Assembly: GCF_019703875.1 (NCBI RefSeq)
Contig: NZ_AP024110.1
Location: 2,455,912 to 2,519,911 of the forward strand
From: Methyloradius palustris
GTDB lineage: Bacteria; Pseudomonadota; Gammaproteobacteria; Burkholderiales; Methylophilaceae
Direction of reading: 5' to 3'
Length of the DNA stretch: 64,000 bases
In this document: positions 2,986 to 20,825 of the stretch, piece after piece
How positions within the stretch are numbered: position 1 is the first letter of the stretch
Layout of the letters: every line of letters starts with the position of its first letter
Translations under genes and position numbers: made by a program
Notes under the pieces: generated by a model
The model's database searches: none
What the model was told of the DNA's origin: nothing
What the model saw: the letters and a program-made list of their open reading frames with translations, nothing else

Positions 2986-3903
2986 TTAAATCTTGATGTT
3001 GAGGATTTTGCTGCGTGCCAGCGCAGATGCAGCAGTACGTGTTTCTACGCCCAGCTTGGCGAAGACATGCTCCAGATGTTTATTCACGGTGCGCGGGCTA
3101 GTACCGAGAATATCGCCAATATCACGATTAGTTTTACCCTTGATAGCCCAGTAGAGCACTTCAGCCTCACGGCGGGTGAGCTTGAACGTGGCAATCAAGG
3201 CGTCAATCTGCGCGGCATCAGACTCCTCACGCAAAAGAATCACCCATTGTTCATCGTTCTGAATTTCCACTGGCGTGAAAATCAAACGGCCATCGCCTTT
3301 TAATACCGTTAATGGCATGGCCGTTGTTTTATCAACCACTTCAAATAGACGATTGACCCATGATTGCAGCTGTGTATTGGCTGAATATGCCTCTATCCAT
3401 TGCCTTGCCAGCGGCGTTTGCCACACGATCTTGCTGGTACTTGGGGTCACGGCAATCGCCGCTTGGCCAAAGGCATCCAGCGCGCCGCGCGTTTGGTGCA
3501 TCTGGCGCGATGTCTGCAAATGCGCTGCCATTCGGGCAAGCACCTCAGTTGGGCGAATCGGCTTGGTCACATAATCACAACCGCCTGCGGCAAAGCCTGC
3601 CACTACGTGCTCAGCTTCTGTGAGGCCTGTCATGAAAATCACGGGGATATGCTGCGTATCTGTTTCCGCCTTGAGTCTGCGGCATACTTCAAAGCCATCC
3701 ATCTCGGGCATGATGGCATCTAACAGGATAATATCTGGCTGGGTTTCTTTGGCCGTATGCAGCGCAGCTTTGCCACTGTTGGCAACCAAAACAGCAAAAC
3801 CAGATTCGGCCAGCGAATCATGCAACACGGCCAGATTGTCGAGCACGTCATCGACAATCAGCACCAAAGTTTCATGGCCACGATTGATGTTGATATTAGC
3901 CAT
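2986..3903 (-). CDS. response regulator, REC + unknown middle domain + LuxR-type HTH
   Basis: N-terminal receiver (LIVDDVLDNL...ILLDAIMPEMDG...KP); C-terminal LuxR/GerE HTH (REAEVLYWAIKGKTNRDIGDILGTSPRTVNKHLEHVFAKLGV). Start overlaps the stop of the upstream kinase by 8 nt. Confidence 0.85.
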   Translation of the reverse strand: MANININRGHETLVLIVDDVLDNLAVLHDSLAESGFAVLVANSGKAALHTAKETQPDIILLDAIMPEMDGFEVCRRLKAETDTQHIPVIFMTGLTEAEHVVAGFAAGGCDYVTKPIRPTEVLARMAAHLQTSRQMHQTRGALDAFGQAAIAVTPSTSKIVWQTPLARQWIEAYSANTQLQSWVNRLFEVVDKTTAMPLTVLKGDGRLIFTPVEIQNDEQWVILLREESDAAQIDALIATFKLTRREAEVLYWAIKGKTNRDIGDILGTSPRTVNKHLEHVFAKLGVETRTAASALARSKILNIKI

Positions 3904-6900
3904 TGCTGCTTATTTCCTGACTTTTGGTTTGCTGTGTAGGCATTTCCAGCAAAATCTGGCGCATTGCATCGAGTTGAAAGCCTTGCAATAACTTACGCAT
4001 CAAGGCGACGAACTCTTTATAGGATTGATCCAAGGTGGCAATTTCATCCAGTTTAGTTGCAACGCCGCGCACAAAACCAACCGCAAGCAGACCTTCTAAA
4101 GCCTGCACATGATCAATTGGTGGGTAGATAAAATCCGTTACTTTCTCTGGGATATGCTCGGATAAACTCATTAGGCTAGGCATGTAAGCACTCATTTCCA
4201 GCGAATCAAATTCGGTGAGCCATTTGATATTCAAGCGATTACCTATCCAGTCGAGCAGCTCTGAAACATGCACGGGTTTGATGATGATATCGTCAGTATG
4301 AATGCCCGCGGTGTTTTCCAGCCCTTTATCGAACGCATTGGCTGAAACGATGCCAATCAGCACATCAGACTGATGTACCTTGCGGATAATGTAGCTGGCC
4401 TCCCAGCCATCCATCACTGGCATCGCCAAATCCATCAAGATCAGGTCAGGCTTGAAAGTCTGGTAGAGATCAACGCACTCACGCCCATTCGCGGCCTGCG
4501 CCATTTCAAAGCCCAGCGGTTCGAGTATATGTACCAGCATCTCGCGATCGACTGCCTCGTTATCCACCACCAGTATTTTCTTGCGAGCACCTTGATAAGC
4601 AATACGGCTAGAGACGCTTTCCGAGGCCAGCTCTTTTGCCAGATGCGCCTGCGGTAAAAACAGGCGAATATAAAAGGTAGTACCCTCGCCCATTTTGCTT
4701 TTAACCGTGAGCTCGCCGCCCATCAACTGGGTCAGCATTTTACTAATAGTCAAACCAAGCCCAGTGCCACCTATGCTGCTGTTATTGGCTGCGCTACCAC
4801 GGGTAAATGGCTCAAATACTTCGTCGATCTCTTCTTGCAAAATGCCGGGGCCAGTATCTTCTATCTCGACCAACGCCAGCTCGCGGGCGTACTTCAAGCG
4901 AAAAATAACGCCACCCTGCTCAGTAAATTTAACGGCATTACCCAGAATATTGATCAATATCTGGCTCAAGCGTTTTTGGTCTGCACGTACGATGGCGGGT
5001 AATTCGCCTGTCACTTCATAGGCAAAACTGATGCCTTTATTGCGCGCTTGTAACTCGAACATATCAACGATCTGGCCGACCAACTCTGGGAATTTAAGTG
5101 GCTTAATATCAAAGGTCAGCTTGCCGCTCTCGATCCTGGCAATGTCCAGCGTCCCTTCAATGAGTGAAAGTAAATGCTCACCGCTACGCCGAATCACGCG
5201 GATGGCTGGCTGGCGATGCAGGGGAATCGAGGTGTCGTTATCGAGCAGTTGTGCATAACCCAATATGCTATTGAGCGGGGTGCGCAATTCGTGGCTAATG
5301 CCTGTGATATAACGACTTTTTGCCTGGTTTGCCTGCTCTGCCACCTGTCTTGCCAGTTGCAACTCCGTATCCGTCTGGCGATGCAGTTCAATCTCACGCA
5401 GCAACAAACCCGTTTGGCGATTGGATTCTTCTTGCGCCACTCGCCTGCTTTGGCTGGTCAAAACCAACCACCAGGTAATCATGGCACTGGCAAACACCAA
5501 AGCCGCGAACACTTTTAAATATCCCATGCGTAATTGCGGCAGCAAAGCGATGGCACTTTTCTCTAGGATCAAGGTTTCATGAAAATAAATCAGGCCAAGT
5601 ATGGTGCCGAGAAAAGTCAAAATAACGGCCATCAACAAGATGTAATGGCTCAAACCGCTATTGAGATAAGGGTACAAAGATTCTGGCAACAGCTTTGCCA
5701 GCATGGCATCCCACTGTGTGGATAATTTTGCGTGCGGCTTGCACAAATCATCGCAACGCGCATCCAGGCAACAGCAAAGTGAACAAATAGCACCTTGGTA
5801 AGCTGGGCACTGCGCCATGTCTTCAGTTTCGTACTCACGCTCGCAAACCACGCATTTCTCTACCCGTTTAGCCTTGGCGATTTCTGGCTGCTGAAGATTG
5901 GCAGGATTGACGCCCTTATTAAATGGTTCCACCACCACCTTGAATTTATAAGGTTGCCGTGCGATGTAGTATTTGCCTTTGGTGTACCAGGCAATCAACG
6001 GTGATGTGACAAATGCGGTACCTAAAGCAATGAATGCCGAGAAGGCTTTTAGCTCATGGCCAAATAATCCCGCGAATGCCGCAATAGAGATTGTAGAAGC
6101 CAGTAACATCGCGCCTACACCTACAGGGTTGATGTCATACAAATATGCGCGACGAAACTCTATGCCTTTTGGGCTCCAGCCCAGCGGCTTGTTGATCACT
6201 AAATCAGCCACGACGGCGGTAATCCACGAAATGGCGATATTGGAATATAGCCCAAGCACCTGTTCTAGCGCCTTGAATACATCCAACTCCATCAACATAA
6301 CAGCAATCAACGCATTGAATACTGCCCAGACCACGCGTCCAGGGTGGCTATGCGTCAGGCGCGCAAAAAAGTTGGACCACGCCAGTGAGCCTGCATAGGC
6401 ATTGGTCATATTGATCTTGATCTGCGAGACGATGACAAATAGCGTAGTCACTGCAAGGGCAATTTGTGGAGCACTAAATACGTGGCTGAAACCTACAAAA
6501 TACATGTGCGTTGGGTTGACTGCATTCTCAAACGACATGCTGCCTTCAATCGCCAAATACGCCAAAAGCGCGCCGCCTAGCATTTTCACCAAACCAAGAA
6601 TAATCCAGCCAGGGCCCGCAACTAGCACGCCGAGATGCCAGGCGATTTTATTTTCTTCGGTCTTCTCAGGCATAAATCGCAGAAAATCCACCTGCTCGCC
6701 AATTTGCGTGATTAACGCCACACCCACTGCAGTGGCGGCTCCGAACATGAGCAGATTGAATTCACCACTTGTCGATTTTCCAGTGAAGCTGATTAGACGC
6801 GAAACGATGTGAGGGTCTTGATGAATAATGGCAATAAAAGGCAGCACCATCAAAATCAGCCAGATTGGCTGCGTAATCATCTGAATACGACTAATTAGCG

Positions 6901-7450
6901 TCACCCCATGCGTGACCAGCGGAATTACAATGAGCGCGCTCACCATATAGCCGATATACAGCGGCATGTGGAAATACAACTCCAGCGCATAAGCCATGAT
7001 GGCGGCTTCTAGCGCAAAGAGAATGAAAGTGAACGAGGCGTAAACGAAAGAGGAAATTGTGGAGCCGATATAGCCAAACCCTGCGCCACGGGTCAGTAAA
7101 TCCATATCAACGCCATACTTTGCAGCGTAATAACTGATTGGCAAACCCGTCATAAAAATGATCAGGCTTACTGCTAATATCGCCCAAAATGCGTTTATAA
7201 ATCCGTAATTAACCGCTATAGTGCCGCCAATTGCTTCTAAAACCAAAAATGAGATCGCGCCAAAAGCGGTATTCGCCACACGCAATACAGACCACTTACG
7301 AAATGAATGCGGCGTAAAGCGCAGGGCGTAATCTTCCAGCGTCTCGTTACCCACCCATGTATTGTAATCACGACGCACTTTGACTATGCGCTGTGTTGGC
7401 TCGTGGGCTTGATTATTGGCCTGATTGGCTTCGGCTATGGCTGTGGTCAA
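3896..7450 (-). CDS. hybrid sensor histidine kinase with N-terminal 12-TM transporter-like (NCS1/permease-like) domain
   Basis: 1184 aa. About 500 aa of polytopic membrane domain resembling purine-cytosine/NCS1-type permeases; then a Cys-rich segment; two more TM helices; coiled coil; HisKA (SHELRTPLNSILGYAQLL); HATPase_c (GTGLGLTISK); receiver domain (ILVVDNE...LMDLAMPVMDG...KP); ~110-aa C-terminal extension. Confidence 0.85.
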   Translation of the reverse strand: MTTAIAEANQANNQAHEPTQRIVKVRRDYNTWVGNETLEDYALRFTPHSFRKWSVLRVANTAFGAISFLVLEAIGGTIAVNYGFINAFWAILAVSLIIFMTGLPISYYAAKYGVDMDLLTRGAGFGYIGSTISSFVYASFTFILFALEAAIMAYALELYFHMPLYIGYMVSALIVIPLVTHGVTLISRIQMITQPIWLILMVLPFIAIIHQDPHIVSRLISFTGKSTSGEFNLLMFGAATAVGVALITQIGEQVDFLRFMPEKTEENKIAWHLGVLVAGPGWIILGLVKMLGGALLAYLAIEGSMSFENAVNPTHMYFVGFSHVFSAPQIALAVTTLFVIVSQIKINMTNAYAGSLAWSNFFARLTHSHPGRVVWAVFNALIAVMLMELDVFKALEQVLGLYSNIAISWITAVVADLVINKPLGWSPKGIEFRRAYLYDINPVGVGAMLLASTISIAAFAGLFGHELKAFSAFIALGTAFVTSPLIAWYTKGKYYIARQPYKFKVVVEPFNKGVNPANLQQPEIAKAKRVEKCVVCEREYETEDMAQCPAYQGAICSLCCCLDARCDDLCKPHAKLSTQWDAMLAKLLPESLYPYLNSGLSHYILLMAVILTFLGTILGLIYFHETLILEKSAIALLPQLRMGYLKVFAALVFASAMITWWLVLTSQSRRVAQEESNRQTGLLLREIELHRQTDTELQLARQVAEQANQAKSRYITGISHELRTPLNSILGYAQLLDNDTSIPLHRQPAIRVIRRSGEHLLSLIEGTLDIARIESGKLTFDIKPLKFPELVGQIVDMFELQARNKGISFAYEVTGELPAIVRADQKRLSQILINILGNAVKFTEQGGVIFRLKYARELALVEIEDTGPGILQEEIDEVFEPFTRGSAANNSSIGGTGLGLTISKMLTQLMGGELTVKSKMGEGTTFYIRLFLPQAHLAKELASESVSSRIAYQGARKKILVVDNEAVDREMLVHILEPLGFEMAQAANGRECVDLYQTFKPDLILMDLAMPVMDGWEASYIIRKVHQSDVLIGIVSANAFDKGLENTAGIHTDDIIIKPVHVSELLDWIGNRLNIKWLTEFDSLEMSAYMPSLMSLSEHIPEKVTDFIYPPIDHVQALEGLLAVGFVRGVATKLDEIATLDQSYKEFVALMRKLLQGFQLDAMRQILLEMPTQQTKSQEISSNG

Positions 7451-7766
7451 CTACATTTCCCTCTTTTATTTTTTAATAACCCAAGGTGATTGGTCACAAA
7501 AACACCCAACTTTATCTTACATAACTTCTGGCATTGCTGGAGTACGCCATTTGACGTATTAGCCGAGGCTGGCTAAAAGAGTGTCTAATTATGCTGAATA
7601 TTAAGCACGGCTTGTGCCTAGTTATAGGTTGATTCTGACTTGAGTTGCAATAATGCTTAAAAGAATCTACGATTAAAAGTGGGGATTTTGCAGCCTCCCC
7701 CGTTTCAAGACGCCTAGCGTCCAAGGACTGCTCCAACTGAGGCTTAATAACCTTGAAGGAGAGTTC

Positions 7767-9125
7767 GTGGACACTAAAAACAACCTCAGCAGCACCCAAA
7801 TTACAGCCCCTCAACCTGTCACTCTAAAGCAAGCCTTTGTCTATTGGCTTAAGCTTGGTTTCATCAGTTTTGGTGGGCCTGCTGGTCAGATCGCCATCAT
7901 GCATCATGACTTGGTCGAGAAGAAACGCTGGATTTCCGAGAAGCGTTTCTTGCATGCGCTCAACTTTTGCATGGTATTACCTGGCCCTGAAGCACAACAG
8001 CTTGCTACTTACATAGGTTGGCTGATGCATCGTACTTGGGGTGGCATCATTGCTGGCGGCCTATTCGTTCTGCCTTCATTCTTCATATTGATAGGGTTGG
8101 CGTGGGTCTATATGGCTTATGGTGCTTTACCTGCAGTTGCTGGGGCGCTTTATGGAATCAAACCAGCCGTTGTCGCTATAGTGTTCTTCGCGGCCTATCG
8201 TATCGGTTCCAGAGCGCTTAAAAACCATGTGCTTTGGTCACTCTCCGCATTGGCATTCTTTGCCATTGCGGTATTAAAGCTCCCGTTCCCAATCATCGTA
8301 TTGGCCGCAGGATTGATTGGTTATATGGGTGGTCGCACTTCCCCGAAGTATTTTCAGGTTGGTGGTGGACATGGTGCGAGCCAAAAAGATTATGGCCCCG
8401 CACTAATTGACGATGAAACGCCTACTCCACAGCATGCTAGTTTCAGCTGGAACAAGGTGCTAAGAATCACTGCGATTGGTCTCGGCATCTGGTTACTTGC
8501 CATGGCAATCCTATATATCCGCTATGGTTGGGATGGCGCCTTCACACAAATGGGCTGGTTCTTTACCAAAACCGCATTGCTGACCTTTGGCGGGGCTTAC
8601 GCGGTATTACCCTATGTCTATCAAGGAGCAGTAGAGCATTATCACTGGCTCAACCCGACACAGATGATAGACGGCTTAGCATTGGGAGAGACTACGCCAG
8701 GCCCTTTGATTATGGTGGTGACCTTCGTTGGCTTTGTCGGTGGTTGGGTAACACAAGTGTTTGGGCCAGATGCTGTATTCATGTCAGCTTTGATTGCTGC
8801 GGCAATTGTGACCTTTTTTACCTTTCTGCCCAGCTTCGTCTTTATTTTATTGGGTGGCCCGTTTATTGAGACTACCCATGGCAACCTGAAATTCACCGCA
8901 CCACTCAGCGCAATCACAGCAGCTGTGGTCGGCGTTATCTTTAATCTAGCGCTATTTTTTGCTTACCATGTGTTCTGGGTAAAGGGCTTTACTGGCTCGG
9001 TGGACTGGGCATCGGTGACAATCACGCTCATGGCATTTGCTGCCATATACCGCTTCAAGGTCAATATCATCCCCGTAATCCTGAGTTGCGGCGTGCTGGG
9101 GATGGCTTGGAAACTACTCGCTTGA
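7767..9125 (+). CDS. chrA: chromate transporter ChrA (long, duplicated form)
   Basis: 452 aa; FVYWLKLGFISFGGPAGQIAIMHHDLVEKKRWISEKRFLHALNFCMVLPGPEAQQLATYIGW motif in half 1, repeated in half 2 (FGGAYAVLPYV...GETTPGPL). GTG start with AAGGAG RBS. Confidence 0.85.
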   Translation: MDTKNNLSSTQITAPQPVTLKQAFVYWLKLGFISFGGPAGQIAIMHHDLVEKKRWISEKRFLHALNFCMVLPGPEAQQLATYIGWLMHRTWGGIIAGGLFVLPSFFILIGLAWVYMAYGALPAVAGALYGIKPAVVAIVFFAAYRIGSRALKNHVLWSLSALAFFAIAVLKLPFPIIVLAAGLIGYMGGRTSPKYFQVGGGHGASQKDYGPALIDDETPTPQHASFSWNKVLRITAIGLGIWLLAMAILYIRYGWDGAFTQMGWFFTKTALLTFGGAYAVLPYVYQGAVEHYHWLNPTQMIDGLALGETTPGPLIMVVTFVGFVGGWVTQVFGPDAVFMSALIAAAIVTFFTFLPSFVFILLGGPFIETTHGNLKFTAPLSAITAAVVGVIFNLALFFAYHVFWVKGFTGSVDWASVTITLMAFAAIYRFKVNIIPVILSCGVLGMAWKLLA

Positions 9126-9138
9126 AACAATCAATTTG

Positions 9139-10182
9139 CTAATGATTGTGCTGATGATGCGCATCTGGATAGTGGGGATGGCGATGCTTTATTGGTAGAT
9201 GCTGATGCGCATGGCTATGTTTAAATCCTAGTCCAATTTGATGCTCATGGCCGTGTTGATGATGTTCATCGTGAGTATGTTCATGCTCATGTTCCATTGG
9301 CATGTGGCTATGAGTGTGTTCATGATGCTCTGTTAAATGTAACCAGATACCGAGAGCCATAAACAACCCAGCAATCAATAGCGGCAATGTTAGTGGCTCA
9401 CCCAAAGCAATCGCCAATAACGCGCCAAAGAATGGAGCTACTGAAAAGTATGCGCCTGTTCGTGCCGTTCCCAGATGGCGCAAACCAACCACAAACAAAG
9501 TCAGGCTGACTCCGTAAGCTAAAAACCCTAGCGCCAATGCCCCAGCAATATTAGGTATTGCAGGCAATGTTGCTCCCAGTGAAAACGCAAGAAACAGATT
9601 AACTGTACCAGCTACCAAGCCTTTGACTGAGGCAATCCATGTCGCATCAGATAATGAGACTTTGCGCGTCAGGTTGTTATCAACACCCCAGGCAAAACAA
9701 GCGCCCAATATCGCCAAAGTTGGTAATGAACTGGCAAAGCTGATTTTATCTGGCCAACTCAGGATAGTTGCCCCGAACAAAATTGCTAACATGCCGATCG
9801 CAATCCGACGGTCAAAGTTCTCTTTAAAAGCGAACCATGCCAGTAGTGCAGTAAAGACGCCTTCTGTATTCAGCAGCAGAGAGGCGCAAGAAGCTGGCAT
9901 GCTAAGTAGCCCCCACATCAATAATACGGGAGCCACAATACCACCAGCTAGGATAGCGCCTGAGAAACAGAACAACTCTACGGAAGTGAGCTTTGCAGGT
10001 AATGCCTTGGTGATAAGACGGTAAAGCGTTAAGCCTATACCAGAGCCAAGATACAACAACCCAGCCAATAACCATGGGCTGACACCAGCCAAGAGCAGTT
10101 TGGCAAGCGGCGTTCCCATCCCAAAAAGTAATGCTGCGGTAAGTGCTGCGAATACACCTATCTGATTAATTTTGAGTTTCAT
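9139..10182 (-). CDS. DMT/EamA-family permease with ~65-aa polyhistidine C-terminal tail
   Basis: 10-TM EamA-type body; tail HLTEHHEHTHSHMPMEHEHEHTHDEHHQHGHEHQ...HSHAHQH...HRHPHYPDAHHQHNH is about 45% His; lies directly downstream of hupE/ureJ and the urease operon. Confidence 0.75.
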   Translation of the reverse strand: MKLKINQIGVFAALTAALLFGMGTPLAKLLLAGVSPWLLAGLLYLGSGIGLTLYRLITKALPAKLTSVELFCFSGAILAGGIVAPVLLMWGLLSMPASCASLLLNTEGVFTALLAWFAFKENFDRRIAIGMLAILFGATILSWPDKISFASSLPTLAILGACFAWGVDNNLTRKVSLSDATWIASVKGLVAGTVNLFLAFSLGATLPAIPNIAGALALGFLAYGVSLTLFVVGLRHLGTARTGAYFSVAPFFGALLAIALGEPLTLPLLIAGLFMALGIWLHLTEHHEHTHSHMPMEHEHEHTHDEHHQHGHEHQIGLGFKHSHAHQHLPIKHRHPHYPDAHHQHNH

Positions 10183-10191
10183 TTGTTCACT

Positions 10192-10770
10192 CTAAACAGC
10201 TAGTAAATAAGCCCCTGTCAGCAGCATCAAGCCGCCCATCACTAAATTGACTTGCTTGGCGATAGTCACGCGGCCAGACGATAACAACAGGCCAAGAGCG
10301 TGCAGCAAAGCAGTGGCGAGTAACATGCCCAGCATCACACTCCAGCCGCTAGAGAATGAAAGCTCAAGCCCATGCGCAAAACCGTGAAGCATGGCAAATA
10401 TAGCGGTCAAAGCTATCTGTATTGGGCGCTTAAGTGGTAATTGAATCAGTAGCAGCAAACCCATTGCCAGCACACTAGCGCTGACACCAATCTCAACACT
10501 GTCAGCATTTAGGTTTGCAGGCATCAAACCAGACATCGCGATTGCAGCGCCAAACGCCATCACCAAAACAAAAGTCACGGGTAACTGCCAACGCGCAGAG
10601 CCGCCAAGTTTGGCTGCCCACATGCCGATTGAGACCATGACCAGCAAATGATCAATCCCAGTAAGTGGATGTAGAAAACCAGCCAAAGCACCCTGCTCGG
10701 CATGGCCTGGATGCGCCATTGCTAGTGTTGAAAATAAACTAAAACTAATGGCGAGCAACATTTTTTTCAT
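10192..10770 (-). CDS. hupE: HupE/UreJ-family nickel transporter
   Basis: 192 aa; signal peptide then HPGHAE...FLHPLTGIDHLL motif characteristic of HupE/UreJ; sits at the end of the urease cluster. Confidence 0.85.
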   Translation of the reverse strand: MKKMLLAISFSLFSTLAMAHPGHAEQGALAGFLHPLTGIDHLLVMVSIGMWAAKLGGSARWQLPVTFVLVMAFGAAIAMSGLMPANLNADSVEIGVSASVLAMGLLLLIQLPLKRPIQIALTAIFAMLHGFAHGLELSFSSGWSVMLGMLLATALLHALGLLLSSGRVTIAKQVNLVMGGLMLLTGAYLLAV

Positions 10771-10824
10771 AGTGATTCTCCTTTTTCCAGTTCTGCAGCG
10801 TAAGTGATGCTTGGAGTTATAACC

Positions 10825-11472
10825 CTAAAGCATCAAGCCTTGTTTCTCGATAAAGCTAACAATCTCTTCCAAGCCCTGCCCAGTTTTTAAATTGGTAAAG
10901 ATAAACGGCCGCTCGCCACGCATACGCTTGGCATCTCTATCCATCACTTCGAGCGATGCGCCAACCATAGGGGCGAGATCGATTTTGTTGATGATCAACA
11001 AGTCAGACTTGGTAATACCAGGGCCACCTTTGCGTGGGATCTTCTCGCCAGCGGCGACATCAATTACATAAATGGTCAGATCAGACAACTCTGGGCTAAA
11101 GGTCGCCGCAAGGTTATCGCCGCCGCTTTCAACAAAAATAATATCCAGTGTTTTAAAGCGCTTACTAAGCTGAGCGACAGCTTCAAGATTCATAGAAGCA
11201 TCTTCGCGTATGGCGGTATGCGGGCAACCACCCGTTTCTACACCGATTATGCGATCGGGCGATAGAGCTTCATTACGAGTGAGAAACTCGGCATCTTCTT
11301 TGGTATAGATGTCGTTGGTCACAACAGCAATGTTATAAACATCGCGTAGCCGTTTGCATAACGATAGTGTCAGCGCCGTTTTACCCGAACCCACTGGGCC
11401 GCCTATGCCAACGCGTAAAGGCTCTTTATAGCTGGCAGTTGCTGCGATTGCTTCTTCAATAGTAAGTGTCAT
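10825..11472 (-). CDS. ureG: urease accessory GTPase UreG
   Basis: 215 aa; P-loop [11 protein letters not shown]; conserved [13 protein letters not shown] and ESGGDNL motifs. Confidence 0.95.
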
Positions 11473-12155
11473 GATCTAAATAGCCTACTGTACTGGGTCT
11501 CATGTTGACAGCCTGCAATCGTCAGGCTGGGTGCAAAATTGCTGATTTCATCGTCATCTAGTGCTATGGACTGGCTTACCAAGTCGGGTAATTGCTGGCC
11601 TAAACTCAATAATATTTTTTGCCCTGCGACTTGCCCAAGCGGTACCGTTTTCATGGCAGCGCTGGCCTGATTTTCTGCCCATGACCACGCATAGGCCTGT
11701 AGCATATCTGGTAACGGAATTGCCCAAACAGACGCAACACCCGCATACACGGCAGGAAAGCTAGGCTCGTGTAATGCATTAATCTTCGCCATAAAATCTG
11801 CAGGTAAATCATTCAAGTCGTTCAGCAAGCGGCAGAGTGAATAGCCCATTTGCTTGGTTTCAGCGAGTGATTCAGCCGTATCGCGCCCAGCCTGAAAAAA
11901 CGCATCCCATGTATTGACTGCCTGCATATCGCCTGCTTGCCAGGCTTGGTAAAGCCGATGCAATACTGGCAACTCAAAGCTGCCCTGATATATATGTAAT
12001 GCGTCGCTAATCCATTGCTTAGCGGTTGCCAGATCATGCACGTCGCCAGACTCAATCGCCCATTCCAAGCCTTGCGAATAACTATAAGCGCCCACTGGCA
12101 GCATAGTGCTGGCAAGTTGCAATAATCGGCTCAGCGCCAAACTGGAGCTAGCCAT
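11469..12155 (-). CDS. ureF: urease accessory protein UreF
   Basis: UreF-like helical protein; ORF-track start (12257) would overlap ureE by ~110 nt, so start placed at internal Met ([16 protein letters not shown]...). Start is uncertain. Confidence 0.8.
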
Positions 12156-12636
12156 GCCGCCCCAATCTCGCCGAGGGCAATCGTGCAATATCATCATCAT
12201 GATGGCGATGGCCGCCGCCGTAGGCGCCAGCTTCTGGCTCGAACGGTGCCTGTTCATCCGTTAATGTCATGCCCAAACCAACTAGCATGTCTTTTAGTAC
12301 ATGGTCTTGTTCCAGTAACAGCCAGCCATCGCCCACTTGCAATGGCACATGCCGATTGCCCAAATGATAAGCAGCGCCCATCAAGGCTTGCTGGTTTGAT
12401 GCTGTTACGCGAGTAACAGGCTCATTCGCTGCGACTATCTGCACCACGCGCCCGTCTTCCGCTTTCAACAAATCACCGCCACGCAGTATCGTGCCGCGAT
12501 CCAACATCAATGCGGCTTCCAGACCAGACTGCAGTGTGACCCGCAGACGACTTCTCTGGCGCAAATCAAACGGTAAAAGCAGTTGATCATCGATCTGGTG
12601 AAGTCCGGTCAGGCGTTGTGTAATATTTAGCATCAA
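12148..12636 (-). CDS. ureE: urease accessory metallochaperone UreE
   Basis: 162 aa; UreE N- and C-domain pattern; only a short His cluster ([10 protein letters not shown]) at the C-terminus. Confidence 0.85.
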
Positions 12637-14348
12637 AATAAAAAGTAACGTTGTGCCATTGGCAGCACGGATGCTGGCTCGCAGGTCAGCAACATGCCAT
12701 CGGCACGAACAATATAGGTTTCAGGGTCGACATCAATCACGGGCATCCAATTGTTATGAATCATGTCTTTTTTCTTTACGGTACGGGTACCGCTCACGGC
12801 CACAAGTGGCTTTTGCAGATTCAGCGCTTGGACTTCGGGATTTTCTAAACCAGCCTTTGAAACAAAAGTGACTGAAGTTTTTAGGCCACCGCCATAGGCA
12901 CCAAACATATGGCGATAATGCACAGGTTGTGGCGTAGGAATCGATGCATTGGGGTCGCCCATTGCGGCGGCGGCAATCATGCCGCCTTTGAGTATAGTCG
13001 ATGGTTTTACCCCGAAAAATGCAGGTCGCCAAATCACCAAATCAGCCAGTTTGCCGACTTCTATTGAACCAACGGTATGGGCAATACCATGTGTCAATGC
13101 TGGGTTGATGGTGTACTTTGCGATATAACGTTTCACGCGAAAGTTATCGTTACGCTCGGTATCTTCAGCCAGCGCGCCGCGCTGCATTTTCATTTTGTGC
13201 GCGGTTTGCCAGGTGCGAATGATCACTTCACCCACACGCCCCATGGCTTGTGAATCGGATGACATCATCGAGAACGCGCCGAGGTCATGCAGAATATCTT
13301 CTGCCGCAATCGTCTCGCGGCGAATGCGACTCTCGGCAAAGGCAATATCTTCGGCAATCGCGGGGTCAAGATGGTGGCAAACCATCAGCATATCCAGATG
13401 CTCGTCGATGGTATTGACAGTGAATGGCCGCGTTGGATTGGTAGAGGATGGCAATACGTTGACATAGCCAGCGGCTTTAATGATGTCTGGTGCGTGACCG
13501 CCTCCAGCGCCCTCTGTGTGGAATGTATGGATGGTGCGATCTTTAAACGCAGCGATTGTGGTTTCAACAAAACCAGATTCATTCAGCGTATCGCTATGAA
13601 TCGCTACCTGAATATCCATCTCTTCAGCAACGCTTAGGCAGTTATCAATAGCAGCGGGCGTTGTGCCCCAATCTTCATGCAGCTTAAGCCCGACGACACC
13701 TGCTTTGACTTGTTCTATCAAAGGCTCAGGCAGGCTGACATTGCCTTTACCCAGAAAACCAAGATTCATCGGGAAGGCATCTGCCGCTTGCAACATGCGA
13801 TGTATATGCCAAGGCCCTGGCGTACAAGTTGTAGCAAACGTACCCGTGGCAGGCCCAGTACCGCCGCCTATCATGGTGGTGACGCCAGACATCAGCGCCT
13901 CTTCAATCTGTTGCGGGCAGATGAAGTGAATGTGCGTGTCAATGCCGCCGGCGGTAACAATCATGCCTTCACCCGCGATAATTTCGGTACCTGCGCCAAT
14001 CGGTATCGTGACGCCTGGCTGTATATCTGGATTGCCAGCTTTGCCGATAGCCGAGATACGCCCGCCCTTGATACCAATGTCCGCTTTCACAATGCCCCAA
14101 TGATCGACAATCAAAGCATTGGTGATGACTGTATCAGCCACATCTTTGGCATTGAGTTGGCCTTGCCCCATACCATCACGGATAACCTTGCCACCACCAA
14201 ATTTCACTTCTTCGCCATAACAGCCAGCGAGCAAGGTGTAATCTTTTTCTACTTCTATCCAGAGTTCAGTGTCGGCCAGACGCACACAATCTCCCGTGGT
14301 CGGGCCAAACATTTCGGCATAGGCTCGCTTGTCTATCTTCACACTCAT
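12633..14348 (-). CDS. ureC: urease alpha subunit
   Basis: 571 aa; canonical UreC ([20 protein letters not shown]..., GGIDTHIHF, carbamylated-Lys region, MVCHHLD). Confidence 0.97.
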
Positions 14349-14653
14349 TTAAGCGCCCCCATCACCTTGCCTGCAAACCCATACACTTTGCGATCACCTG
14401 CTAATGCAACTAATTGCACCGTGCGGGTTTGGCCTGGTTCAAAGCGCACAGCCGTACCTGCAGCAATATCTAGCCGAAATCCATAAGCTGCTTGCCTGTT
14501 GAACGACAGCGCCTCGTTGGTCTCAAAAAAGTGATAGTGCGAGCCAATTTGGATTGGGCGATCACCTGTATTTGAGACATCAATGGTGACTGTCGGCCGA
14601 TCTACATTCAGCGTGATTTCACCCGACTCAATTTTCATTTCACCTGGAATCAT
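14345..14653 (-). CDS. ureB: urease beta subunit
   Basis: 102 aa; MIPGEM...EITLN...[13 protein letters not shown]. Confidence 0.95.
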
Positions 14654-14663
14654 ATGCGCCTCA

Positions 14664-14818
14664 AAAATGGATTTCCATGAGATAAGTTAAGGATAAAAAT
14701 GGATGAAGTACGAGGCGCCCGGAGCGCAGCAGCCGAGACAGTACAATAAGTACGGCAAGGTTGTGAGCACCGCGCAACGAAGTAATTCGCCATTTTGATT
14801 ATTAAATTACTCATGGAA
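14664..14818. repeat. intercistronic structured repeat element, copy A (core 14701-14791; arms TTCCATGAG / CTCATGGAA)
   Basis: About 85% identical over 91 nt to 18847-18937; flanked by a perfect 9-bp inverted repeat whose right arm overlaps the ureA stop codon and whose left arm abuts the ureB RBS. Confidence 0.7.
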
Positions 14819-15113
14819 TGGGTTGGTGGACAGTAACAAGTTTCGTTCCATCTGGGAAAGTCGCTTCAATCTGGATATCGGGAATCATCTCGGGAATACC
14901 TTCCATCACGTCATCACGTGTGAGTAAAGTAGCGCCATATCCCATAAGATATGCCACAGTCTGGCCATCGCGAGCGCCTTCCATGATGGCGGCAGAAATA
15001 TAGGCAATCGCCTCGGGATAATTCAGCTTAAGGCCGCGTGCCTTGCGCCGCTCGGCCAGTAGACCAGCGGTAAAAATCAGCAATTTATCTTTTTCGCGTG
15101 GGGTAAGTTCCAT
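14811..15113 (-). CDS. ureA: urease gamma subunit
   Basis: 100 aa; [35 protein letters not shown]... canonical UreA. Confidence 0.95.
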
Positions 15114-15135
15114 AATTCTATTCTCTCAAATTCAA

Positions 15136-16020
15136 TCAAGTGCTCCAGATGCGTGGTCTGGAACTTTGTCTTGTGGCATACCAAGGCCGTAGTATGTGCC
15201 ACAACGCTTCAAAATACTGTCGCGCGGATTGCGCTGAATGGCCAATATAACGTGCAGAAAAAATCTGCGGTAATGCTGTCAGGCCAATTTTTGAGGACTG
15301 ACCTGCCGAAACTTCTCTACAAGCTGCAATGATCTCTGCTGGCACAGCACCTGCCGCAACGACGAAACTGGCACTCACTACCTGCCCGCGCAAACCAGCC
15401 ATTGAAGCAAACGCTCGACTTTGTGGTGATAGATTTGTGCGCTCGTTCCAGATCAATTGATTGTTGCGCCTGATGGCCAAACGTTGATTGAGCTTACCTT
15501 GCAGCCATTCTTCATTGCTGGCTTGACGGCCAAAACAGAGAATATCCCACCCAGCAAACACAGCCTGTCCACCGAGATTAATCTCTGCTGATAAGGCAGT
15601 GTCCGAACCCTCAAACAATATATTCTCTTGCGGTAGCCACTCCAGTATCGCACTATCTTGTAAATCAAAATTCAGTTGCTGGCTGGCCTGCCGACCGTTG
15701 GACTTGTACCACTTTCCTGCACCTGGCGTGGTGAGCAGCACATGTGAGTGATTACTTTGCTGCACATTGAGCGTTAAGGCATCACCGCCAGCAACACCGC
15801 CCGGCGGGTGCACGATAATCGCATGGCTGACGACCTCACCTTCTGGATACAACACTTTCTGGATGACCAAAGGGCCTTCATGCTGCTTACGGGCTAATAC
15901 CGTGCGTCCATTTTTCTCTACGAAATCCAGGCTTAGTTTTGCGCGCCAGTTGAGGCTAGCAACTGCTGCTTGTCTTGCCGACAATTCTGACTGCTGTAAA
16001 TAGGCATCATCCATCAACAC
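15136..16020 (-). CDS. ureD: urease accessory protein UreD/UreH
   Basis: 294 aa; UreD-family pattern; position directly upstream of ureA. Confidence 0.85.
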   Translation of the reverse strand: MLMDDAYLQQSELSARQAAVASLNWRAKLSLDFVEKNGRTVLARKQHEGPLVIQKVLYPEGEVVSHAIIVHPPGGVAGGDALTLNVQQSNHSHVLLTTPGAGKWYKSNGRQASQQLNFDLQDSAILEWLPQENILFEGSDTALSAEINLGGQAVFAGWDILCFGRQASNEEWLQGKLNQRLAIRRNNQLIWNERTNLSPQSRAFASMAGLRGQVVSASFVVAAGAVPAEIIAACREVSAGQSSKIGLTALPQIFSARYIGHSAQSARQYFEALWHILRPWYATRQSSRPRIWST

Positions 16021-16065
16021 ATATTGCCACGAATCTGGGTCAGTTCGTAATATTGGAAGCAGAAA

Positions 16066-16764
16066 CTATAGCGCAACAAAGTTACGGATATTGTCTTTTT
16101 CCATATCTTCGCCCAGACCGTTTTTCACCACTTGGCCGCGTGACATCACCAGATAATGATCAGCCAGCGCCTCGGCGAAATCGTAATATTGTTCTACCAG
16201 CAGAATCGCCATATCACCACGCTCAGAAAGCATTTTGATCACGCGTTCGATGTCTTTGATAATAGAAGGCTGAATGCCTTCAGTCGGCTCATCGAGTATC
16301 AATAATTTAGGCCGAGAAATCAGCGCGCGGGCAATCGCCAATTGTTGTTGTTGCCCGCCAGAAAGATCGCCGCCACGTCTATACAGCATCTGCTTCAGCA
16401 CGGGGAACATGTCATAAATGTCTTCAGGTATCTGCGATGCCGCTTTGCCTTTCACTACAGCCAAACCCATGTGCAAATTTTCTTCTACCGTAAGGCGGCT
16501 GAATATCTCACGGCCTTGTGGCACATAGGCCATGCCTAAAGCGGCACGTTCGTATGGTTTGAGGTTGGTAATGTCTTTACCATCCAGAAAAATGTGGCCC
16601 GTTTTAACAGGCAACACGCCCATCAGGCATTTGAGTAAGGTGGTTTTTCCTACACCGTTACGGCCTAGCAATACGGTACAGGCACTCATAGGCGCAGCAA
16701 GTGAAACATCACGAAGAATCTGGCTGCCGCCGTAGAATTGGTTGATGGCTTTTACTTCTAACAT
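16066..16764 (-). CDS. urtE: urea ABC transporter ATP-binding protein UrtE
   Basis: 232 aa LivF-like ATPase (GRNGVGKTT, LSGGQQQ, LILDEP) at the end of the urt operon. Confidence 0.9.
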   Translation of the reverse strand: MLEVKAINQFYGGSQILRDVSLAAPMSACTVLLGRNGVGKTTLLKCLMGVLPVKTGHIFLDGKDITNLKPYERAALGMAYVPQGREIFSRLTVEENLHMGLAVVKGKAASQIPEDIYDMFPVLKQMLYRRGGDLSGGQQQQLAIARALISRPKLLILDEPTEGIQPSIIKDIERVIKMLSERGDMAILLVEQYYDFAEALADHYLVMSRGQVVKNGLGEDMEKDNIRNFVAL

Positions 16765-16769
16765 ATTGA

Positions 16770-17591
16770 TTAGCGCCCCAAATAAACTTCTATGACTTGT
16801 TCGTTAGACTGCACTTGCTCCATCGAACCCTCAGCAAGCACGCTGCCTTGATGCAGCACGGTCACTTTGCGTGCGATGCTATTTACGAAATCCATGTCGT
16901 GTTCAACCACCATAATTGAATGCTTGCCTGCCAGGCTATTTAACAACTCGGCAGTACGTTCGGTTTCATGATCGGTCATACCGGCCACAGGCTCATCCAG
17001 CAGCAAAAGTTTAGGTTCTTGCGCCAGCAACATGCCGATTTCAAGCCACTGTTTTTGCCCGTGCGATAACAAGCCTGAGCGCATTTTGTGGGAATCTTGC
17101 AGGTTGATGGTAGTGAGAATTTCGGCAATACGGTCCAGCTGCTCGCCAGAAAGCTTGCCGAATAATGAGTTCCAGATACCTTTATCAGTCTTCATCGCCA
17201 ATTCGAGATTTTCAAATACCGTATGGTTTTCAAACACCGTTGGCTTCTGAAATTTACGTCCGATGCCAGCCTGCGCAATTTGCGGCTCGGTCATCTTGGA
17301 GCAATCCATGGTTTGCCCAAAAAACACCGTGCCTGTATCTGGCCGCGTTTTGCCAGTGATGACGTCCATCATGGTGGTCTTACCGGCGCCATTAGGGCCG
17401 ATAATGCAGCGTAGTTCGCCTACATCAATTGATAGCGATAATTTGTTAAGTGCCCTGAATCCATCAAAACTAACGGTGATGTCTTCCAGATAAAGCACCA
17501 CACCATGCGTGGTATCTAGCACACCAGGCTGGTAGAGACTGCCACTCCCACGAACGTCAGTGGCAGGTTGCGAAATACTATTTTCAACCAT
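16770..17591 (-). CDS. urtD: urea ABC transporter ATP-binding protein UrtD
   Basis: 273 aa LivG-like ATPase with N-terminal extension typical of UrtD (GPNGAGKTT, LSHGQKQ, LLLDEP). Confidence 0.9.
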   Translation of the reverse strand: MVENSISQPATDVRGSGSLYQPGVLDTTHGVVLYLEDITVSFDGFRALNKLSLSIDVGELRCIIGPNGAGKTTMMDVITGKTRPDTGTVFFGQTMDCSKMTEPQIAQAGIGRKFQKPTVFENHTVFENLELAMKTDKGIWNSLFGKLSGEQLDRIAEILTTINLQDSHKMRSGLLSHGQKQWLEIGMLLAQEPKLLLLDEPVAGMTDHETERTAELLNSLAGKHSIMVVEHDMDFVNSIARKVTVLHQGSVLAEGSMEQVQSNEQVIEVYLGR

Positions 17592-18760
17592 TATGCTTGC
17601 CCCGCTTCTCCGTCAACTGCGTTGCTTGGTAACTCATTTTCTGTCTTCTTGGCTTTTAGTTTTGACTTCACTTTTCCAAATAAACCTAATACCCCTTGCG
17701 GTAAGTAGAGCGTTGCCAAGACAAACAACAAGCCTAAAAAGTACAGCCAATATTCAGGGAATGCCTGGGTAAAGTAGCTCTTGGCACCATTCACAATACC
17801 CGCACCCAACAATGGCCCAATCAGCGTGCCACGACCGCCGACCGCTGCCCAGATAGCAATTTCAATGGAGTTGGCTGGTGACATCTCGCTGGGGTTGATG
17901 ATGCCAACCTGCGGCACATATAAAGCCCCTGCAATACCGCAAATGACTGCAGAAAATGTCCAGATCGCCAGCTTGTAATGCAGCGGGTTGTAGCCAGAGA
18001 ACATCACTCGGGATTCTGCATCGCGTATAGCTGTGAGCACGCGGCCAAATTTACTGGTCACGATTGCACGCGAAATAATCAGGAAAGCAACCAGCAATAT
18101 GCCTGTAATCACAAACAAGGCCATGCGCATTTGCCCAGTAGTAATTGGGATATCCAGCAGGCGCTTGAAATCGGTAAAGCCATTATTACCGCCAAAGCCT
18201 GTTTCATTGCGGAAGAACAGCAGCATGAAAGCGTATGTCATGGCTTGCGTGATGATAGAAAAATAAACACCCTTGATGCGTGACCTAAAGGCAAAGTAAC
18301 CGAAGATAAAAGCCAACACGCCCGGCACCAACACCACGAGCAGCAAGGCAAACCAGAAGTGATCCGTCATCGCCCAATACCAAGGGTAAGTCTTCCAATC
18401 CAAGAACACCATAAAGTCTGGCAGATTGCTATGGTAGCTACCATCGGTGCCAATCTGGCGCATCAAGTACATACCGAATGCATAGCCACCCAGCGCAAAA
18501 AACAGGCCGTGACCTAAACTTAATATGCCTGTGTAGCCCCAAACCAAGTCCATCGCCAAGGCGACAAAGGCGTAACAAAGTATCTTGCCGCAGAGCGCTA
18601 CGGTGTAATCGGAGATATAAAAAACACTGGTTTCTGGCACCAGCAAATTAAAAACGGGGAACACCACACAGACAACAGCCAGTGCTATCGCCAGCGCCAA
18701 CCAGGCTTTACTGCTGTAAAGCCGATGTACCAGCGTTGGTTGCGGAAATTTCTCATGCAT
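17591..18760 (-). CDS. urtC: urea ABC transporter permease UrtC
   Basis: 389 aa LivM-like polytopic permease; start codon overlaps urtD stop. Confidence 0.9.
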   Translation of the reverse strand: MHEKFPQPTLVHRLYSSKAWLALAIALAVVCVVFPVFNLLVPETSVFYISDYTVALCGKILCYAFVALAMDLVWGYTGILSLGHGLFFALGGYAFGMYLMRQIGTDGSYHSNLPDFMVFLDWKTYPWYWAMTDHFWFALLLVVLVPGVLAFIFGYFAFRSRIKGVYFSIITQAMTYAFMLLFFRNETGFGGNNGFTDFKRLLDIPITTGQMRMALFVITGILLVAFLIISRAIVTSKFGRVLTAIRDAESRVMFSGYNPLHYKLAIWTFSAVICGIAGALYVPQVGIINPSEMSPANSIEIAIWAAVGGRGTLIGPLLGAGIVNGAKSYFTQAFPEYWLYFLGLLFVLATLYLPQGVLGLFGKVKSKLKAKKTENELPSNAVDGEAGQA

Positions 18761-18824
18761 GGTTTTGCTTCCTTATTACTAATGCGTTATTGGCAGCTAA
18801 TAATCTGATTTGATACTTAAAGAA

Positions 18825-18959
18825 ACGCGGAATAAGTCGTTGAGCGGGATGAAGTGCAAGGCGCACGGAACGCAGGAACCGAGACAGTACATAGAGTACG
18901 GCGAGGTTGCGAGTACCGCGCAACGCAGCAATTCGCCCGCGCAGACACTTATTCCGTGT
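18825..18959. repeat. intercistronic structured repeat element, copy B (core 18847-18937; arms ACGCGGAATAAGT / ACTTATTCCGTGT)
   Basis: Second copy of the 91-nt core, nested in a 13-bp inverted repeat (12/13 paired; the mismatch is a G.U wobble only on the plus-strand RNA); lies between urtB stop and urtC start. Confidence 0.7.
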
Positions 18960-18963
18960 TTCC

Positions 18964-20613: not shown

Positions 20614-20642
20614 AAGAACTCTCGGTCATGTTCACACAGAAA

Positions 20643-20668
20643 CCGCTACGGGGGTTAGCCCGTAGCGG
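20643..20668 (-). terminator. intercistronic stem-loop (partial terminator/attenuator) between urtA and urtB
   Basis: Perfect 10-bp inverted repeat CCGCTACGGG/CCCGTAGCGG with 6-nt loop, followed on the minus strand by UUUCUGUGUG; 30 nt upstream of urtB start. Confidence 0.5.
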
Positions 20669-20825
20669 CGTTTCGTACATTTACTACTGATAAAACAGAA
20701 TGTGCTTAAGCATTTGTTTTATTACTTTGCTACTTGTTTGCTGCTGTTATTACCAAGCAATTTATCTGCTTGCTTGTGTTGCATGTTTTACTGCTTTTAT
20801 ACTTCGCCTACCTTAACTTCAAGCC

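What the first reader, a model, noticed from the sequence alone, without database searches (positions are those of the whole stretch)
9139..10770. Polyhistidine-tailed DMT/EamA permease next to HupE/UreJ at the end of the urease operon
The EamA permease ends in a ~65-residue tail that is nearly half histidine (HEH/HxH repeats). It is encoded directly after hupE/ureJ and ureG. UreE here has only a short His patch (GHRHH), unlike UreE proteins with long His-rich tails. The His-rich tail may therefore act as the Ni2+ capture/storage element, or the permease may be a Ni/Co importer or exporter dedicated to urease maturation. I do not know of a characterised DMT-family nickel transporter with such a tail.
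Basis: partly seen in the sequence, partly recalled or inferred. Interest (0 to 1): 0.55.

Follow-up and report, generated by a model that had tools for sequence, protein, structure and literature searches.

The report
CnrT-type metal exporter beside urease operon
The histidine-tailed permease at the end of this urease operon belongs to the CnrT family of nickel/cobalt efflux proteins, and it sits next to urease genes only in one narrow bacterial lineage, so it is a fairly ordinary resistance gene in an unusual spot.

Summary
ORF 9139..10182(-) encodes a 347-aa two-EamA (DMT) permease. Its last 66 residues hold 26 His, and it starts 9 nt after hupE/ureJ at the end of urtABCDE-ureDABCEFG-hupE (Methyloradius palustris).

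The protein is 51% identical over its full length, tail included (E 1e-83), to CnrT of Cupriavidus metallidurans pMOL28. The literature describes CnrT as the DMT-family inner-membrane Ni(II) exporter of the cnr determinant.

The tail is a family hallmark. 24 His positions are invariant down to about 53% identity, and AlphaFold2 models them as four beta strands. The positive-inside rule places the tail in the cytoplasm.

The family is widespread (at least 598 species hits). Its neighbours are typically metal-efflux genes (RND, P1B-ATPase, CDF, MerR, ChrA). Urease genes lay within 10 kb in only 1 of 80 loci, and were not adjacent there.

The slot between hupE and the downstream histidine kinase is variable. 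It is empty in Methylobacillus, holds nikR plus a TonB-dependent receptor in a close relative, and holds cnrT-like plus chrA here.

Best reading: an acquired divalent-metal (probably Ni/Co) exporter, probably co-transcribed with the urease operon as an overflow valve. It is a new member of a known kind, of low to moderate interest.

The parts
9139..10182 (-). cnrT-like gene: 347-aa DMT/EamA permease, homologue of the Ni(II) exporter CnrT
   Evidence: Pfam EamA x2. BLASTP to pMOL28 CnrT gives 51% identity, E 1e-83, full length. AF2 model has 10 TM helices, pLDDT 78.7. Foldseek assigns the DMT fold.
9139..9339 (-). C-terminal His-rich domain (aa 282-347 plus stop): 26 His in 66 aa
   Evidence: 24 His positions are invariant in alignments A1 and A2. 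Modelled as four beta strands (287-292, 296-303, 321-328, 332-337) at per-10-residue mean pLDDT 61-76. No Pfam model matches it. Cytoplasmic by the positive-inside rule, read by eye from the sequence.
10192..10770 (-). hupE/ureJ, putative Ni2+ uptake permease, last ancestral gene of the ure operon
   Evidence: PF04955, 2e-44. 100% identical to Methyloradius palustris HupE. Its stop lies 9 nt before the cnrT-like ATG.
10825..16020 (-). ureD-ureA-ureB-ureC-ureE-ureF-ureG (urease structural and accessory genes)
   Evidence: ORFs. Pfam/NCBIfam hits for UreG, UreE and UreF. Same gene order annotated in L085.
16066..22094 (-). urtABCDE urea ABC transporter, upstream on the same strand
   Evidence: NCBIfam equivalogs UrtA-E, all above cutoff.
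7767..9125 (+). chrA chromate efflux transporter, convergent; its stop is 13 nt from the cnrT-like stop; probably acquired together with it
   Evidence: PF02417, 6e-80, and TIGR00937. ChrA or ChrB lies within three genes of the DMT in 7 of 75 other loci. chr and cnr are also adjacent on pMOL28.
2986..7450 (-). hybrid histidine kinase plus response regulator: the conserved flank that marks the end of the variable slot
   Evidence: The same HK-RR pair follows hupE directly in Methylobacillus caricis (L092). In L090 it follows nikR plus a TonB-dependent receptor. About 130 bp upstream of the HK is conserved (A3).

Best explanation
[quoted passage not shown] Its conserved 66-residue cytoplasmic His-rich domain binds metal and acts as a capture or sensing module for the exporter.

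The gene arrived by horizontal transfer, probably together with chrA. It landed in a variable slot between hupE and a conserved two-component system. Because it starts only 9 nt after hupE, it is probably read through from the urt-ure-hupE transcript. If so, when urease and the Ni importer HupE are induced, an overflow valve for excess cytoplasmic Ni is made as well.

Shown here: the homology, the conservation of the tail, the fold, the gene contexts and the variable slot. Inferred: direction of transport, substrate, co-transcription, and any physiological coupling to urease.
For: - Homology: 51% full-length identity to CnrT. AMRFinderPlus labels that gene 'nickel diffusion facilitator CnrT'. 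CnrT is described as the DMT-family exporter of cytoplasmic Ni to the periplasm (PMC11647595, PMC6851896, PMC7019866).
- Tail: the His register is invariant across the family. Among the best 150 representatives, 78 of 87 that are at least 330 aa long carry the long tail.
- Efflux contexts: 27 of 75 loci have RND, P1B-ATPase, CDF, MerR, Chr or HupE_UreJ_2/DUF6488 genes within three genes. A MerR-CDF-DMT operon occurs at 76% identity and RND-TCS-DMT at 78%.
- Insertion into a variable slot.
- Transfer: about 72% identity to Yersinia and Pseudomonas copies, whereas the neighbouring HupE falls to 58% within the same family. The gene has the lowest GC3 in the region, 0.42.
- Spacing: the 9-nt gap after hupE is the same in every ure-linked locus examined.
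- Topology: the positively charged loops lie on the side of both termini, so the tail is cytoplasmic (sequence; the automatic segmentation failed and the loops were read by eye).
- Precedent: Ni efflux affecting urease is known from H. pylori CznABC (PMC3856676).
Against: - No transport data exist for this protein, and the primary data for CnrT itself are thin in the papers I could read.
- 51% identity does not fix metal specificity. Many relatives sit beside ZntA-like ATPases and CadR/ZntR-like MerR regulators, which points to Zn/Cd as much as to Ni.
- Co-transcription rests on spacing alone. The promoter/terminator scan was uninformative.
- DMT proteins can also be importers (for example LicB).
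- GC content gives only weak support for recent transfer.
Confidence: 0.6

Rival explanations
1. The protein is a divalent-cation exporter whose real substrate is Zn/Cd/Co rather than Ni, and it has no functional tie to urease. It and chrA are passengers of a resistance cassette that happened to land after hupE.
For: Neighbours of close relatives are ZntA-like P1B-ATPases, CDF proteins and CadR/ZntR-like MerR regulators. The gene is paired with chrA, which has nothing to do with nickel. Urease linkage is absent in 79 of 80 species loci. P0002, at 87% identity in the same family, is not ure-linked.
Against: The only named member, CnrT, is assigned to Ni. The tight 9-nt junction with hupE is kept across copies 81-100% identical. 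In a close relative the same slot holds nickel genes (nikR plus a TonB-dependent receptor), which suggests selection for Ni-homeostasis functions at this position.
Confidence: 0.25
2. One reading: the permease imports Ni/Co for urease, or its His-rich tail stores Ni and hands it to UreE, compensating for the short His patch of UreE.
For: Operon position next to hupE and ureG. The tail is cytoplasmic, where UreE works. UreE here lacks a long His tail. Importers exist within the DMT fold (LicB).
Against: The tail is a family-wide feature, present in homologues that have no urease nearby. Homologues cluster with efflux systems, and the type member is described as an exporter. HupE already supplies uptake. 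Methylobacillus has the same ure-hupE operon without this gene. The UreE of the nikR-bearing relative L090 is the same length as that of the ure-linked locus L085 (163 aa each).
Confidence: 0.1
3. It exports an organic molecule, such as a metabolite or a metallophore, as most characterised bacterial DMT/EamA proteins do. The His tail would only be regulatory.
For: Weak NCBIfam similarity to amino-acid/drug exporters (TIGR00950, YedA; far below cutoff). The general DMT fold matches nucleotide-sugar, choline and amino-acid carriers.
Against: No biosynthetic genes for a metallophore are nearby. Homology to CnrT is far stronger than to any organic-substrate DMT. Gene contexts are cation-efflux systems.
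Confidence: 0.05

Closest known systems
CnrT (Rmet_6211) of Cupriavidus metallidurans CH34 plasmid pMOL28, DMT family (TC 2.A.7)
   Same: Two EamA repeats, about 350 aa, 51% identity over the full length. Identical register of the C-terminal His-rich domain (HEHxHxH...HDEHHQHxH...HxHPHYPDxHHxHxH). A chr gene cluster is next door on pMOL28 as well.
   Different: CnrT is the last gene of cnrYXHCBAT and is controlled by the CnrYXH ECF system together with an RND pump. Here there is no RND pump and no CnrX/CnrH in the 64 kb window, and the gene follows a urease/hupE operon. The window protein belongs to a sister clade (about 72% identical copies in Yersinia, Pseudomonas and Thiobacillus), not to the CnrT clade itself.
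RcnA of E. coli (Ni/Co efflux, NicO family) and NreB/NrsD (MFS nickel exporters)
   Same: Inner-membrane Ni/Co exporters that carry a cytoplasmic His-rich segment. For RcnA this is a loop of 67 aa with 17 His (PMC11247825). For NreB/NrsD it is a His-rich C-terminus (from my own knowledge, not checked here).
   Different: Unrelated folds and families. In RcnA the His region varies in length, whereas here 24 His positions are fixed and predicted to form a beta sheet.
HupE/UreJ and NiCoT (NixA/HoxN/UreH) urease- or hydrogenase-linked nickel permeases
   Same: Membrane proteins encoded within ure/hyp operons and involved in nickel handling.
   Different: They are importers from different families (PF04955, PF03824). 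This protein has neither domain, and across genomes it does not co-occur with urease genes.
CznABC of Helicobacter pylori
   Same: A nickel efflux system whose loss affects nickel tolerance and urease modulation (PMC3856676). It is a functional precedent for an exporter acting as a urease-related nickel valve.
   Different: It is a three-component RND pump, is not encoded in the urease operon, and is unrelated in sequence.
Solved DMT structures: YddG (5i20), LicB (7paf), SLC35B1 (9i20), TPT (5y78)
   Same: Ten-helix DMT fold; TM-score normalised by the length of the solved chain 0.69-0.76 for the top hits.
   Different: Only 13-18% identity, all carry organic substrates, and none has a His-rich domain. 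No solved structure is detectable by sequence.

Membership tests
CnrT-type DMT metal exporters (homology-defined protein family) | Two EamA repeats forming a ten-helix DMT fold | tested here: met
   Pfam EamA, two stretches, 5e-22. AF2 model shows helices spanning 8-283. Foldseek hits DMT structures.
CnrT-type DMT metal exporters (homology-defined protein family) | Full-length sequence similarity to CnrT of pMOL28 | tested here: met
   BLASTP 51% identity, E 1e-83, residues 20-347 against 16-351.
CnrT-type DMT metal exporters (homology-defined protein family) | C-terminal His-rich domain with the conserved His register | tested here: met
   24 invariant His columns shared with CnrT and three plasmid homologues (A1).
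CnrT-type DMT metal exporters (homology-defined protein family) | Export of Ni2+ (or Co2+) from the cytoplasm | not testable with these tools
   Function of CnrT taken from the literature.
cnr cobalt-nickel resistance determinant (cnrYXHCBAT operon) | Linkage to the CnrCBA RND pump and the CnrYXH regulatory genes | tested here: not met
   tblastn with CnrA, CnrB, CnrX and CnrH finds nothing in the 64 kb window. The gene is therefore a CnrT homologue, not part of a cnr determinant.
Urease-dedicated nickel permeases (HupE/UreJ, NiCoT/UreH/NixA) | HupE_UreJ or NiCoT domain | tested here: not met
   Only EamA, plus a sub-threshold PUNUT hit, was found.
Urease-dedicated nickel permeases (HupE/UreJ, NiCoT/UreH/NixA) | Recurrent co-localisation with ure genes across taxa | tested here: not met
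   Urease genes lie within 10 kb in 1 of 80 loci, on the opposite strand and about 5.6 kb away. Linkage is seen only in the Methyloradius-like lineage.
RcnA/NicO Ni-Co efflux family | NicO-type membrane domain with a central His-rich loop | tested here: not met
   No such Pfam hit. Here the His region is C-terminal. The resemblance is functional analogy only.

The most novel reading that the evidence does not exclude
The cnrT-like exporter and HupE form an operon-encoded push-pull nickel homeostat that replaces transcriptional control by NikR. The same slot holds nikR plus a TonB-dependent receptor in a close relative and cnrT-like plus chrA here. In this reading the fixed 24-His beta-sheet domain is a new kind of cytoplasmic Ni-buffering or gating module, which could also feed UreE.
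Probability: 0.12. Interest if true: 0.5.

Novelty: new member of a known kind. Interest (0 to 1): 0.25.

Why it matters
It corrects an annotation-level puzzle. 'DMT family transporter' genes with His tails, found in at least 598 species (including Yersinia and Pseudomonas), are CnrT-type metal exporters.

The family is large, spread by horizontal transfer, and barely studied. It has no Pfam model for its invariant 24-His domain and no solved structure, so the domain is a reasonable target for metal-binding and structural work.

The urease-operon placement offers a convenient natural system for testing whether co-expressing a Ni importer and a Ni exporter buffers nickel during urease induction. 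It is a lineage-specific arrangement, not a general rule.

Tried and rejected
- Sequence search of the PDB: no hit at E <= 1.
- Pfam scan of the tail alone, both window and CnrT versions, at E <= 10: nothing.
- Tandem Repeats Finder on the tail DNA: nothing, so it is not a repeat expansion.
- Promoter/terminator consensus scan of 7400-17000: fewer promoter-like sites than in shuffles and no convincing terminator after the gene, so uninformative about co-transcription.
- NCBIfam: no CnrT-specific model, only far sub-threshold hits to TIGR00950 and YedA.
- First literature searches for 'CnrT' were swamped by unrelated acronyms. The Monchy 2007 paper (PMC2168447) is not held.
- My automatic hydropathy segmentation produced overlapping segments. 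I read the loops by eye instead.
- My first regex-based tail classification failed on 39 sequences. I replaced it with a His-density count.
- Considered and rejected: a NiCoT/HupE-type importer, a UreE-like chaperone function, a metallophore exporter. See the rival explanations.

Full report
**1. Observation**

The window region 9139..10770 holds two same-strand ORFs. ORF 9139..10182(-) is a 347-aa protein with two EamA repeats (PF00892, 5e-22). ORF 10192..10770(-) is a HupE/UreJ protein (PF04955, 2e-44).

Upstream on the same strand lie ureG, ureF, ureE, ureC, ureB, ureA and ureD, and before them urtABCDE.

The permease's last 66 residues (282-347) hold 26 His, whereas the 281-residue body holds one. 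The neighbouring genes average 2.3% His, and the binomial tail probability is about 6e-26. The tail DNA is not a tandem repeat.

UreE ends in ...[10 protein letters not shown]..., a short His patch.

HupE is 100% identical to that of Methyloradius palustris, which identifies the organism.

**2. What the protein is**

A homology search found more than 8000 relatives. Many are about 349 aa long and about 72% identical over the whole query, in Yersinia, Pseudomonas, Thiobacillus, Phyllobacterium and Methylophilaceae. Some Yersinia copies are named 'cobalt-nickel resistance (export) protein'.

A tblastn search of plasmids found a homologue annotated cnrT next to czcCBA.

I fetched the cnr region of pMOL28, where AMRFinderPlus labels L004:20398-21450 'nickel diffusion facilitator CnrT'. 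BLASTP of the window protein against it gives 51% identity, E 1e-83, across the full length including the tail.

The literature describes CnrT as follows:
- a member of the DMT family, TC 2.A.7 (PMC7019866);

The papers I could read cite this role rather than show transport data. From memory, the primary evidence is summarised in Nies 2003 (FEMS Microbiol Rev). I could not verify that here.

**3. The tail is a conserved domain, not a loose His-rich appendage**

- In an alignment of 15 sequences down to 53% identity, 24 His positions are invariant. The pattern is WLHLxExHEHxHxH...EHxHxHxHDEHHxHxH...HxHxHxH....HxHxH(Y/F)PDxHHxHxH. A 33-sequence alignment gives the same result.
- An exhaustive search of 50%-identity representatives found 697 clusters at E <= 1e-30.
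- Among the best 150 representatives, 78 of 87 that are at least 330 aa long carry the long tail (at least 18 His in 60 residues). A minority of about 290-310-aa relatives have a short tail or none.
- AlphaFold2 (pLDDT 78.7) models ten TM helices. It models the tail as four beta strands (287-292, 296-303, 321-328, 332-337) at moderate confidence.
- Pfam has no model for the tail.
- The fold matches DMT carriers (SLC35B1, LicB, TPT, YddG) at 13-18% identity. No solved relative is detectable by sequence.
- The Lys/Arg-rich loops (55-66, 118-126, 169-180, 234-243) lie on the same side as both termini. By the positive-inside rule the tail is cytoplasmic (read from the sequence; the automatic segmentation failed).

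**4. Is it linked to urease in general? No**

A scan of one genome per species found at least 598 loci, of which 80 were returned.

| Feature near the DMT gene | Count |
|---|---|
| Urease genes within 10 kb | 1 of 80 (L066; opposite strand, about 5.6 kb away) |
| CnrA-like RND pump within 10 kb | 15 of 80 |
| ChrA within 10 kb | 8 of 80 |
| At least one metal-related gene within three genes (see below) | 27 of 75 |

Clustering the three genes on each side showed no fixed partner. The 27 loci counted above have at least one of: RND components, ZntA-like P1B-ATPase, CDF, MerR-type regulator, ChrA/ChrB, or a HupE_UreJ_2 + DUF6488 pair.

The closest relatives split as follows:

| Relative | Identity to window protein | Context |
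|---|---|---|
| P0001 | 92% | ureDABCEFG-hupE-DMT><chrA, same as the window |
| P0003 | 81% | same as the window |
| 347-aa EamA gene on the contig that carries HupE P0273 (HupE 90% identical; assembly GCA_015689235.1) | not measured | same as the window |
| P0002 | 87% | AraC-type regulator upstream, MerR downstream |
| P0004 | 81% | two-component system, PepSY, P-type ATPase |
| P0006 | 78% | directly after an RND pump and its two-component system, followed by an integrase fragment |
| P0007 | 76% | MerR<->CDF-DMT operon |

The MerR neighbours score best against the CadR/ZntR/MerR models, and the ATPase looks like ZntA. Metal specificity within the clade is therefore open.

**5. The slot is variable**

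In Methylobacillus caricis the same ure-hupE operon is followed directly by the hybrid histidine kinase and response regulator that flank the window locus (L092).

In a metagenomic contig whose HupE is 92% identical, the slot holds nikR and a TonB-dependent receptor instead (L090).

About 130 bp upstream of the kinase is conserved between the window, L085 and L090. Similarity ends where the inserted genes begin.

The cnrT-like gene has the lowest GC3 of the region, 0.42 against 0.45-0.57. It is about 72% identical to gammaproteobacterial copies, whereas the vertically inherited HupE falls to 58% within Methylophilaceae. Both facts point to acquisition by transfer, probably with chrA. chr and cnr are also neighbours on pMOL28.

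The window contains no NikR, TonB-dependent receptor, CnrABC, CnrXH or MerR homologue.

**6. Mechanism**

Most likely, the protein exports divalent metal cations from the cytoplasm. Ni/Co is favoured by homology to CnrT and by the nickel-centred operon. The cytoplasmic His domain would serve as a metal-capture or gating module.

Because the ATG lies 9 nt after the hupE stop in every ure-linked copy, read-through from the urt-ure-hupE transcript is likely. That would make an importer and an exporter together, so that nickel is supplied to UreE/UreG while excess is bled off. CznABC of H. pylori is a precedent for Ni efflux modulating urease.

These steps are inferred: direction, substrate, co-transcription and physiological coupling.

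Rivals:
- a Zn/Cd/Co exporter that is merely a passenger of transfer (0.25);
- an exporter of an organic substrate (0.05).

**7. Verdict**

The identification 'nickel/cobalt transporter' is reasonable. The claimed novelty is not, because this is a CnrT-family protein. The urease linkage is lineage-specific in a hot-spot slot.

Two points of residual interest remain. The first is the unstudied, strictly conserved 24-His domain of a very widespread family. The second is the alternative occupancy of the same slot by nikR plus a receptor or by cnrT-like plus chrA.

Novelty: new member of a known kind. Interest 0.25.

Noticed in passing
L090:6576-9161 (metagenome contig with HupE 92% identical); corresponds to window 7767-10182: In a close relative, the slot after hupE holds nikR (RHH_1 + NikR_C) and a TonB-dependent receptor instead of cnrT-like + chrA. 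Methylobacillus caricis (L092) has nothing there. The position is a hot spot for metal-homeostasis genes.
   Followed up: partly
L017:8598-11017, L022, L084 (Gallionella/Sideroxydans); also L059, L080: A recurrent same-strand module: HupE_UreJ_2 (PF13795) + a small His-rich DUF6488 protein + the cnrT-like gene, often near RND pumps. HupE-like proteins and CnrT-like proteins may be paired more often than chance, in a form unrelated to urease.
   Followed up: partly
window 3896-7450 (-): The 1184-aa hybrid histidine kinase has a polytopic membrane N-terminal region of roughly 700 aa, plus a Cys-rich stretch, with no Pfam match. It is conserved next to the ure-hupE operon in Methylobacillus as well, and might sense urea, nitrogen or metal.
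   Followed up: no
window 11469-12257 (-) and 12148-12636 (-): The mechanical ureF ORF (262 aa) overlaps ureE by 110 nt. Homologues are 228-230 aa, so the true ureF start is probably the internal Met about 34 codons downstream, leaving only a few bases of overlap with ureE.
   Followed up: partly
L006, L008, L012, L024, L026, L079 (genes adjacent to the DMT): Small SAM-dependent methyltransferase genes of two families sit directly beside the cnrT-like gene in six unrelated loci. No explanation.
   Followed up: no
window 22162-23283 (-): A 373-aa ORF just upstream of urtA has no Pfam hit and only a sub-threshold match to the ExtI porin model. It is possibly an outer-membrane channel for urea or short amides.
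   Followed up: no
P0127, P0139, P0141, P0170, P0175, P0205 (representatives): Some family members are 490-595 aa long, so the CnrT-like unit (with its His domain) is fused to extra N- or C-terminal regions of unknown nature.
   Followed up: no
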